Below, one piece after another: positions 19,106-19,537 of a stretch of 60,952 nt of DNA. Each line of letters starts with the position of its first letter. Position 1 is the first letter of the stretch. The position numbers and the translations under genes were made by a program. The notes under the pieces are model-generated. The model worked only from the letters and a program-made list of their open reading frames with translations, ran no database searches and was not told where the DNA came from. This DNA comes from an uncultured Candidatus Saccharibacteria bacterium (GTDB lineage Bacteria > Patescibacteriota > WWE3 > UBA101185 > UBA10185): NCBI GenBank assembly GCA_964540135.1, contig CAZILK010000004.1, forward strand, positions 1-60,952. The letters run 5' to 3'.

Positions 19106-19537
19106 ATGGAAAAACTATTATTAAAAGGAAAAAAACTACAGATGAGCCAAGTCTTTACAGCGGAAGGTAAGTGTTTACCTGTTACTGTTGTTAGGATGGA
19201 GGCCGATTTTACTGATGAGCTTTTAGACAAAGCAGTCCAGATTGTTGGTACATCAAAAGGTAAAGGGTTTACCGGTGTTATGAAAAGATGGGGTTTTGCA
19301 GGACTTCAAGCAACAAGAGGTCAGTCAAATACACCAAGATCAGCAGGTTCGATAGGTGCGCAAACACCTGGCCGTGTTTATAAAGGCAAGAAAATGGCAG
19401 GACACAAGGGGAACGTTCGCATTACTATTAAAGGTTCTAAGATAGTTCAGCTTAATACTGATACAAAAGAGATAATGGTTTTTGGTCCAGTACCAGGAGC
19501 TCGTAACTCAAATGTAGTTTTAAAGGTAGGAGCTTAA
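19106..19537 (+). CDS. rplC: 50S ribosomal protein L3 (short, 143 aa)
   Basis: [43 protein letters not shown]. Confidence 0.95.

What the first reader, a model, noticed from the sequence alone, without database searches (positions are those of the whole stretch)
19106..19537. Minimal uL3 lacking about 65 internal residues
Seen: 143 aa versus ~210 typical. The sequence goes from LPVTVVRME almost directly to [12 protein letters not shown], dropping the segment that normally holds GYxAxQ and KPxxGH. The frame is intact, the PTC-proximal loop is kept (with ATRG for ATHG), and no leftover fragment lies nearby. Inference: clean loss of a surface domain from an essential core protein.
Basis: partly seen in the sequence, partly recalled or inferred. 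Interest (0 to 1): 0.7.

Follow-up and report, generated by a model that had tools for sequence, protein, structure and literature searches.

The report
Short uL3 of a WWE3 bacterium
This is a genuine, functional ribosomal protein uL3 that lacks about 65 internal residues, a trait shared by a large group of ultra-small CPR/Patescibacteria and already noted in the literature, so it is real but not new.

Summary
ORF 19106-19537 (+) encodes a 143-aa uL3 between rpsJ and rplD. It aligns with E. coli-type uL3 at residues 1-31 and about 97-204. The roughly 65 residues between, which hold DGYxAxQ and KPxxGH, are replaced by a short linker.

It is not an assembly error.
- An independent assembly of a 95%-identical strain aligns without gaps. 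It differs at 42 synonymous and 6 non-synonymous codons.
- All 120 best database hits carry the same deletion, as do 253 collected relatives (median 144 aa, contigs up to 1.1 Mb).

Structure models show the six core barrel strands and the long PTC-reaching loop are kept. A three-stranded insert between core strands 2 and 3 is lost.

The window comes from a WWE3-like CPR bacterium: uL30 is absent and the named RpoB neighbours are mostly WWE3.

Tsurumaki et al. 2022 (RNA 28:1041) already reported that uL3 of some CPR bacteria lacks an internal region. This gene is therefore an ordinary member of a published class.

Not testable here: matching changes in 23S domain VI, the number of independent losses, and a second copy outside the window.

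One side observation may be more novel. A conserved leader with a GC hairpin and T-run sits directly upstream of rplC.

The parts
19106..19537 (+). rplC, short uL3 (143 aa plus stop)
   Evidence: ORF. PF00297 58.6 bits. TIGR03625 135.3 bits in two stretches. phmmer to solved uL3 chains, E 4e-31. Foldseek matches to bacterial uL3 chains, TM (query-normalised) 0.53-0.61.
19106..19204 (+). Residues 1-33: N-terminal core strands beta1-beta2 ([12 protein letters not shown]...LPVTVVRME), equivalent to E. coli 1-31
   Evidence: Alignment to E. coli 4-41. AF2 strands E4-17 and E23-31, pLDDT above 90.
19205..19231 (+). Residues 34-42 (DFTDELLDK): junction/linker that replaces about 65 residues (E. coli ~32-96) of the canonical beta2-beta3 insert
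   Evidence: Linker count 20 versus 85 in the reference. Alignments. Short helical turn at 37-39 in the model. Gap-free in independent assembly L086.
19232..19270 (+). Residues 43-55: core strand beta3 and the invariant SKGKGF motif
   Evidence: AF2 strand E43-49. S50 K51 G52 G54 F55 invariant in 48 relatives.
19271..19405 (+). Residues 56-100: long internal loop that in solved ribosomes reaches toward the peptidyl-transferase centre. It carries TRG (R71, nt 19316-19318) for THG and [19 protein letters not shown].
   Evidence: Aligned to E. coli 118-164 with one gap. Low pLDDT, as expected for an rRNA-embedded loop. Most conserved part of uL3, 0.72. TRG occurs only in a subclade of short forms.
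19406..19534 (+). Residues 101-143: C-terminal core strands beta4-beta6
   Evidence: AF2 strands E105-117, E122-126 and E136-141, pLDDT above 90. These correspond to E168-180, E185-189 and E199-204 of the full-length model.
18666..18977 (+). rpsJ (uS10), upstream neighbour
   Evidence: PF00338 113.5 bits.
19539..20168 (+). rplD (uL4), downstream neighbour, starting 1 nt after the rplC stop
   Evidence: PF00573 223.3 bits.
18978..19105 (+). 128-nt rpsJ-rplC spacer. It holds a promoter-like TTGGAT (18994-18999), a 17-nt gap, TGcTAAAAT (19014-19022), and a GC hairpin (19079-19094) with a T-run just before the rplC ATG. This is context, not part of the deletion.
   Evidence: Terminator-like hit. 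Conserved in six loci. Only 1 of 128 positions differs from L086, against 12% in the gene.

Best explanation
This is the normal, functional rplC of a WWE3-like CPR/Patescibacteria genome. Its lineage has lost, in frame, the three-stranded beta insert with its small helices that canonical bacterial uL3 carries between core strands beta2 and beta3 (E. coli ~32-96, holding DGYxAxQ and KPxxGH). Shown here: a compact six-stranded barrel remains, together with the complete internal loop. Inferred from solved ribosomes of other bacteria: the barrel sits on 23S domain VI at the solvent side, and the loop threads to the peptidyl-transferase centre. Also inferred: the lost module is a peripheral elaboration of the globular domain. 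It is the least conserved part of uL3, and it sits at a site whose length differs greatly between domains of life. Its removal therefore shrinks the ribosome surface without touching the catalytic-centre contacts.
For: Identity and context: uL3 family hits; S10-operon position tuf-rpsJ-rplC-rplD-rplW-rplB; same synteny in relatives. Not an artefact: all 120 best 90%-cluster hits are short. 253 short forms were collected, with a linker of 18-29 residues (mode 20) and a median length of 144 aa. They lie on contigs up to 1.11 Mb from NCBI, JGI, ENA and Logan. Independent assembly L086 is gap-free over the gene. Function: 42 synonymous against 6 non-synonymous codon differences to L086; 32 invariant columns among 48 relatives. 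Anatomy: the AF2 model of the window protein has strands 4-17, 23-31, 43-49, 105-117, 122-126 and 136-141 at pLDDT above 90. The full-length Dojkabacteria uL3 model has the same six strands plus E35-41, H43-46, E50-55 and E78-83. Foldseek finds only uL3 chains. Dispensability: the lost segment has the lowest conservation in 99 full-length cluster representatives, 0.39 against 0.51 for the core and 0.72 for the loop. Partial deletions that lack only the KPxxGH part also exist: P0138, P0203, P0232, P0272, P0386, P0401. Lineage: uS5 is directly followed by uL15, so uL30 is absent. Named RpoB neighbours are mostly 'candidate division WWE3'. Named short uL3 come from WWE3, the Microgenomates group, one 'Parcubacteria' label and the Patescibacteria group, while Dojkabacteria and Chloroflexota are full length. 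[quoted passage not shown]
Against: No ribosome structure with a short uL3 exists; every solved uL3 chain matched is at least 173 residues. The assumed position of the barrel and the surface exposure of the lost module are therefore inferred. KPxxGH is fairly conserved in full-length proteins, so the module probably makes some rRNA or protein contacts that must be lost or compensated. I could not list those contacts, because no coordinates were available. I could not inspect 23S rRNA of any short-uL3 genome. Only 61 kb of the genome was searched for a second copy.
Confidence: 0.9

Rival explanations
1. Assembly or gene-calling artefact: a collapsed or chimeric assembly removed about 195 nt from a normal rplC.
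For: The window's exact protein is not on record in the public gene index, so its own assembly has no exact duplicate.
Against: A 95%-identical strain from a different ENA assembly aligns gap-free across the junction. All 120 closest clusters and 253 relatives from four sources have the same architecture. The frame is intact and the core strands meet cleanly.
Confidence: 0.01
2. Decaying or auxiliary copy: the short gene is a relic or paralogue, and a full-length uL3, or a separately encoded middle module, exists elsewhere in the genome.
For: Only 61 kb was available. The TIGR03625 score is below the equivalog cut-off.
Against: It occupies the canonical operon slot between rpsJ and rplD in every relative examined. 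Purifying selection is strong, 42 synonymous against 6 non-synonymous. No second copy or middle-segment fragment lies in the window. The published survey of CPR genomes reports the small uL3 as the uL3 of those genomes.
Confidence: 0.03
3. Ancestral minimal state: the short form is primitive, and the insert was gained in other bacteria.
For: The beta2-beta3 junction is a variable site. The archaeal models place the SKGKGF block at profile position ~193-202 of 331-342, the bacterial model at ~103 of 202, and the window protein at residue 42.
Against: All non-CPR representatives and the CPR class Dojkabacteria have the insert. Intermediate forms retain its first hairpin. Short forms are confined, as far as names go, to CPR lineages nested within Bacteria.
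Confidence: 0.04
4. The loss is compensated rather than neutral. Matching changes in 23S domain VI or in neighbouring proteins, or C-terminal tails added to uL3 in some lineages, fill the vacated space.
For: 22% of short forms carry C-terminal extensions. One subset has a conserved G-x-x-KKF-x-PL motif that was not seen in 130 full-length forms.
Against: The window protein and 78% of short forms have no tail. The published survey linked none of its four 23S gaps to uL3. In the window uL14 (122 aa, by ORF length and operon position only), uL13 and bL17 (Pfam) are of ordinary length.
Confidence: 0.25

Closest known systems
Small uL3 of some CPR bacteria (Tsurumaki, Saito, Tomita & Kanai 2022, RNA 28:1041; PMC9297842)
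   Same: The same phenomenon. [quoted passage not shown] The window is from a CPR (WWE3-like) genome.
   Different: Nothing substantive. The main text gives no boundaries, structure or lineage list for uL3, and its supplements are not held. Added here: the boundaries (E. coli ~32-96), the retained six-strand core, partial-deletion intermediates, the subclade-specific H-to-R change and the C-terminal tails.
Canonical bacterial uL3 (E. coli/T. thermophilus, many PDB entries; TIGR03625)
   Same: N-terminal strands, SKGKGF, the PTC-reaching loop with GSIG...TPGR and KGKKMAG, the C-terminal strands, and the operon position.
   Different: It lacks the 65-residue beta2-beta3 insert (DGYxAxQ, KPxxGH). 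It has TRG instead of THG, and its loop tip is one residue shorter. It scores below the equivalog cut-off.
Archaeal/eukaryotic uL3 (TIGR03626, about 330-400 aa)
   Same: The shared universal core: residues 42-127 match profile positions 193-278.
   Different: The stretch that precedes the conserved SKGKGF block is far longer in the archaeal models. It is about 190-200 profile positions there, about 100 in the bacterial model, and 41 residues here. This stretch includes the N-terminal part as well as the junction.
Other CPR ribosomal-protein reductions (uL30, bL9 and uL1 losses; short uL2, uL5, uL13, uL15)
   Same: The same trend of trimming large-subunit surface elements. uL30 is absent here too.
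   Different: In this window uL2 (275 aa), uL5 (180), uL13 (149) and uL15 (147) are full length. The uL3 deletion is therefore not part of a uniform shrinkage.

Membership tests
uL3 orthologue (rplC; Pfam PF00297) | Significant match to the Ribosomal_L3 domain model above its gathering score | tested here: met
   58.6 bits against a cut-off of 22. phmmer to E. coli uL3, E 4e-31.
uL3 orthologue (rplC; Pfam PF00297) | Conserved motifs SKGKGF, GSIG..TPGR and KGKKMAG, and the long internal loop | tested here: met
   All present. They are invariant or nearly invariant among 48 relatives.
uL3 orthologue (rplC; Pfam PF00297) | Gene lies between rpsJ and rplD in the S10 operon | tested here: met
   The order is the same in L081-L085.
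uL3 orthologue (rplC; Pfam PF00297) | Beta-barrel globular fold matching solved uL3 | tested here: met
   AF2 core pLDDT above 90. The top 50 Foldseek hits are all uL3 chains, probability 1.00.
uL3 orthologue (rplC; Pfam PF00297) | It is the only uL3 gene of the genome | not testable with these tools
   No second copy in the 61-kb window. The rest of the genome is not available.
Canonical full-length bacterial uL3 (TIGR03625 equivalog architecture) | End-to-end match above the equivalog cut-off | tested here: not met
   135.3 bits against 142.9; two stretches, with profile positions ~36-102 skipped.
Canonical full-length bacterial uL3 (TIGR03625 equivalog architecture) | Beta2-beta3 insert with DGYxAxQ and KPxxGH | tested here: not met
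   Linker of 20 residues against 85. Three strands are missing relative to the full-length model.
CPR short uL3 (Tsurumaki et al. 2022) | Internal region missing, termini intact | tested here: met
CPR short uL3 (Tsurumaki et al. 2022) | Host genome belongs to the CPR/Patescibacteria | tested here: met
   uS5 is followed directly by uL15, so uL30 is absent. Named RpoB neighbours are mostly WWE3 at 65-69% identity. Named uL3 relatives are WWE3/Patescibacteria.
CPR short uL3 (Tsurumaki et al. 2022) | Same deletion fixed in related genomes | tested here: met
   120 of 120 best hits are short. 37 of the best 150 50%-identity clusters are short (36 with an intact N-terminus). 253 short forms in all.

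The most novel reading that the evidence does not exclude
The deletion may not be a neutral trim. It could mark a remodelled uL3/domain-VI assembly nucleus in WWE3/Microgenomates-type ribosomes. Features not excluded by the evidence: co-evolved changes in 23S H94-H101 or in bL19/uL14/bL17; several independent or stepwise losses, given that intermediates lacking only the KPxxGH helix exist; and, in some lineages, a new conserved C-terminal KKFxPL tail that takes over the lost contacts. If so, short uL3 would define a naturally occurring minimal uL3 and an alternative way of nucleating the 3' domain of 23S rRNA.
Probability: 0.2. Interest if true: 0.5.

Novelty: already known. Interest (0 to 1): 0.22.

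Why it matters
uL3 is an essential protein. By established knowledge from E. coli reconstitution work, it is also an early assembly protein of the large subunit. A natural variant lacking one third of the protein shows which part is dispensable: the three-stranded insert. It also shows which part is not: the six-strand barrel and the PTC loop. That is useful for minimal-ribosome design and for interpreting CPR ribosome structures once they exist. As a discovery it adds little. The shortening was published in 2022, and the proteins have been annotated as L3 in WWE3 genomes for years. The value added here is the precise anatomy, the spread of the trait, and the evidence for purifying selection.

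Tried and rejected
1. The genome-contig scan with the window protein was dominated by the universal KGKKMAGH pattern. It was useful only as a source of reference sequences (L057, L028, L032).
2. Cluster look-ups for names gave few taxon names, only WWE3 and 'Patescibacteria group'. The lineage list for the short form is therefore incomplete.
3. A neighbour-joining tree on the 126 retained columns was star-like. One clade of 21 short forms included the window and WWE3, and other short forms were scattered among long ones. I rejected using it to count loss events.
4. A regex-based linker measurement failed for 54 of 150 sequences and was replaced by an alignment-based count.
5. Five apparent 'intermediate' forms (P0133, P0217, P0263, P0221, P0249) look like truncated or frameshifted calls and were discounted. 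P0239, a 'short' sister of P0232, has a non-uL3 N-terminus and was also discounted.
6. Rfam at gathering and at permissive thresholds found nothing in the window or in the spacer. ARAGORN found no tRNA.
7. The supplements of Tsurumaki et al. are not held. Nikolaeva et al. 2020 says nothing on uL3 shortening. No CPR ribosome structure paper was found.
8. The window's exact protein is not on record.

Full report
OBSERVATION

- Pfam Ribosomal_L3 matches at 58.6 bits (cut-off 22).
- The bacterial equivalog model TIGR03625 matches in two stretches. The main one covers residues 42-140 against profile positions 103-202 of 202. The total of 135.3 bits falls just under the 142.9 cut-off because about 65 profile positions are skipped.
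- Against solved structures, residues 6-43 align with E. coli uL3 4-41, and residues 42-140 with 105-204.
- In an alignment with a Yersinia/E. coli-type reference recovered from locus L057, 85 residues lie between PVTV and TSKGKGF. The window protein has 20.
- The residues [12 protein letters not shown] still align with the reference segment VEIFADVKKVDVTG. The deletion therefore corresponds to about E. coli 32-96. This stretch holds DGYRAxQV and KPEAGH.
- The internal loop is complete apart from a one-residue shortening at its tip (GSIGAQTPG) and TRG for THG.
- tblastn with two full-length uL3 proteins, and with their middle segments alone, finds nothing else in the window.

REAL GENE OR ARTEFACT

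The gene lies in the canonical order tuf-rpsJ-rplC-rplD-rplW-rplB-rpsS, followed by the rest of the S10/spc/alpha cluster.

- All 120 best hits among 90%-identity clusters carry the same deletion. This includes two 198- and 208-aa proteins that are a short core plus an acidic C-terminal tail.
- In a library clustered at 50% identity, 37 of the best 150 clusters are short (36 with an intact N-terminus). A further 8 are genuine or apparent intermediates, and the rest are full length.
- In all I collected 253 short forms. Their linker is 18-29 residues (mode 20) and their median length is 144 aa. They come from NCBI, JGI, ENA and Logan assemblies, on contigs up to 1.11 Mb.
- The nearest relative (95% amino-acid identity) comes from an independent ENA assembly. 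It aligns with the window without a single gap from rpsJ through rplD.
- Within rplC, 48 codons differ from that relative: 42 synonymous and 6 non-synonymous.

This is a functional gene under purifying selection, not a misassembly or a pseudogene.

LINEAGE

- uS5 (26082-26558) is followed two bases later by uL15 (26560-27003). uL30 is therefore absent, which is the CPR hallmark (PMC9297842).
- The window's RpoB has named neighbours that are overwhelmingly 'candidate division WWE3' at 65-69% identity.
- Named short uL3 proteins come from WWE3 (P0022, P0276), a 'Microgenomates group' bacterium (P0376), one 'Parcubacteria' label (P0355) and 'Patescibacteria group'.
- Dojkabacteria (P0383, P0390) and Chloroflexota have full-length proteins.

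ANATOMY

The AlphaFold2 model of the window protein, built on 48 relatives, has six strands: 4-17, 23-31, 43-49, 105-117, 122-126 and 136-141. Their pLDDT is above 90. The region 54-99 has low confidence, as expected for a loop that is ordered only inside rRNA. Foldseek returns only uL3 chains, all at least 173 residues long.

A model of the full-length Dojkabacteria uL3 has the same six strands: 6-18, 24-31, 105-111, 168-180, 185-189 and 199-204. Between the second and third it has three extra strands (35-41, 50-55, 78-83) and short helices.

The short protein is therefore the bare barrel plus the loop. What is lost is a discrete three-stranded insert.

- In 99 full-length cluster representatives, that insert is the least conserved part. 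Its mean top-residue frequency is 0.39, against 0.51 for the core strands and 0.72 for the loop.
- Several proteins lack only its KPxxGH portion: P0138, P0203, P0232, P0272, P0386 and P0401.
- The part of the protein that precedes the conserved SKGKGF block is far longer in the archaeal models than in bacteria. This part includes the N-terminal extension as well as the junction.

HOW IT MOST LIKELY WORKS

Shown here: the core fold, the loop and all invariant motifs are retained, and the gene is under selection.

Taken from published ribosome structures of other bacteria:
- The uL3 globular domain sits on the solvent side and organises 23S domain VI, next to uL14, bL19, bL17 and bL32.

Inferred: the short protein binds in the same way, and the lost insert is a peripheral elaboration whose removal trims the surface.

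Not shown: which contacts the insert makes in canonical ribosomes, and whether anything compensates for their loss.

- About 22% of short forms carry C-terminal tails. One subset shares a G-x-x-KKF-x-PL motif that is absent from 130 full-length forms. This hints at compensation in some lineages.
- The window protein has no tail.
- The His-to-Arg change (TRG) occurs in 119 short forms and in no long form, but 130 short forms keep THG. It is a later, subclade-specific substitution and is not part of the deletion.

COMPARISON WITH WHAT IS KNOWN

Tsurumaki et al. (RNA 2022; PMC9297842) compared 53 ribosomal proteins between CPR and other bacteria. [quoted passage not shown]

They map missing proteins and rRNA regions to the ribosome surface. 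They do not link any of their four 23S gaps (H9, H63, H78, H98) to uL3.

The window's gene is a plain member of that published class. I found no solved structure and no paper on a ribosome with a short uL3.

WHAT COULD NOT BE SETTLED

- Whether the loss happened once or several times. The tree on 126 columns is unresolved.
- Whether 23S domain VI co-varies.
- Whether a second copy exists beyond the 61 kb.

VERDICT

The novelty class is 'already known', and interest is low to moderate.

SIDE OBSERVATION

The rpsJ-rplC spacer is long (117-225 nt) in all six loci of this clade, while the rest of the operon is tightly packed. It contains three elements.

- A conserved promoter-like element. In the window this is TTGGAT at 18994-18999, then 17 nt, then TGcTAAAAT at 19014-19022. 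It is seen in four of six loci. Its -35 hexamer is weak, which explains why the consensus scan missed it.
- An invariant GC hairpin with a T-run (19079-19101), ending 4 nt before the rplC ATG.
- No Shine-Dalgarno sequence in front of rplC.

The spacer differs from the sister strain at 1 of 128 positions, against 12% within rplC. A hairpin downstream of a promoter looks like a leader attenuator, analogous to the E. coli S10 leader, rather than only the terminator of tuf-rpsJ. No Rfam family matches it. One caveat applies: divergence along the 660-nt comparison is uneven, so recombination could also explain the low spacer divergence.

Noticed in passing
window 18978-19105 (also L081 9854-10000, L082 1366-1500, L083 1276-1500, L084 1384-1500, L085 1368-1500): The rpsJ-rplC spacer is long and conserved. 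It holds a promoter-like TTGGAT, a 17-nt gap, then TGcTAAAAT (18994-19022), followed by an invariant GC hairpin with a T-run (19079-19101) ending 4 nt before the rplC ATG. There is no SD. Only 1 of 128 positions differs from a sister strain, against 12% in rplC. It looks like a leader attenuator for the rplC-led operon, and no Rfam family matches it.
   Followed up: partly
window 19316-19318 (R71): THG is replaced by TRG at the base of the PTC loop (E. coli H134 position). TRG occurs in 119 short uL3 and in no full-length uL3, but 130 short forms keep THG. It is a subclade-specific change, independent of the deletion.
   Followed up: yes
relatives P0325, P0338, P0347, P0349, P0358, P0134, P0143, P0156, P0187 (not in the window): A subset of short uL3 proteins carries a C-terminal extension of 20-90 residues. 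It begins with a conserved G-x-x-KKF-x-PL motif, often followed by a K/E-rich helix-like tail. The motif was not seen in 130 full-length uL3. It may compensate for the lost insert.
   Followed up: partly
relatives P0138, P0203, P0232, P0272, P0386, P0401: These are intermediate uL3 forms with a linker of about 65-69 residues. They keep the first hairpin of the insert (KDGYxAVQ) but lack the KPxxGH helix region, which suggests stepwise or repeated erosion of the insert.
   Followed up: partly
window 26558-26560: uS5 is followed directly by uL15, with no uL30 gene. This is the CPR hallmark.
   Followed up: yes
window 33584-33865: uS9 (ORF 33584-34240, 218 aa) carries an N-terminal extension of about 90 residues rich in K, E, V and A, ahead of the Pfam S9 domain (residues 95-218). 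The ORF start overlaps the end of uL13.
   Followed up: partly
window 22966-23133: The ORF in the uL29 slot is only 55 aa and has no Pfam hit at E<=0.001. It is weakly similar (41% over 29 residues) to the 69-aa uL29 of L081, so it is a shortened, divergent uL29.
   Followed up: partly
window 18900-19537 versus L086: Divergence from the sister strain is very uneven: 0-1 differences per 60 nt in the spacer and the first 35 nt of rplC, 8-13 per 60 nt in the middle of rplC (19200-19440), then 2-3 at its 3' end. This fits either nucleotide-level constraint on the leader or a recombination mosaic.
   Followed up: no
window 1-60952: No tRNA (ARAGORN) and no Rfam family at gathering score anywhere in 61 kb. 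The ORF 117-1262 (381 aa) has no Pfam match.
   Followed up: no
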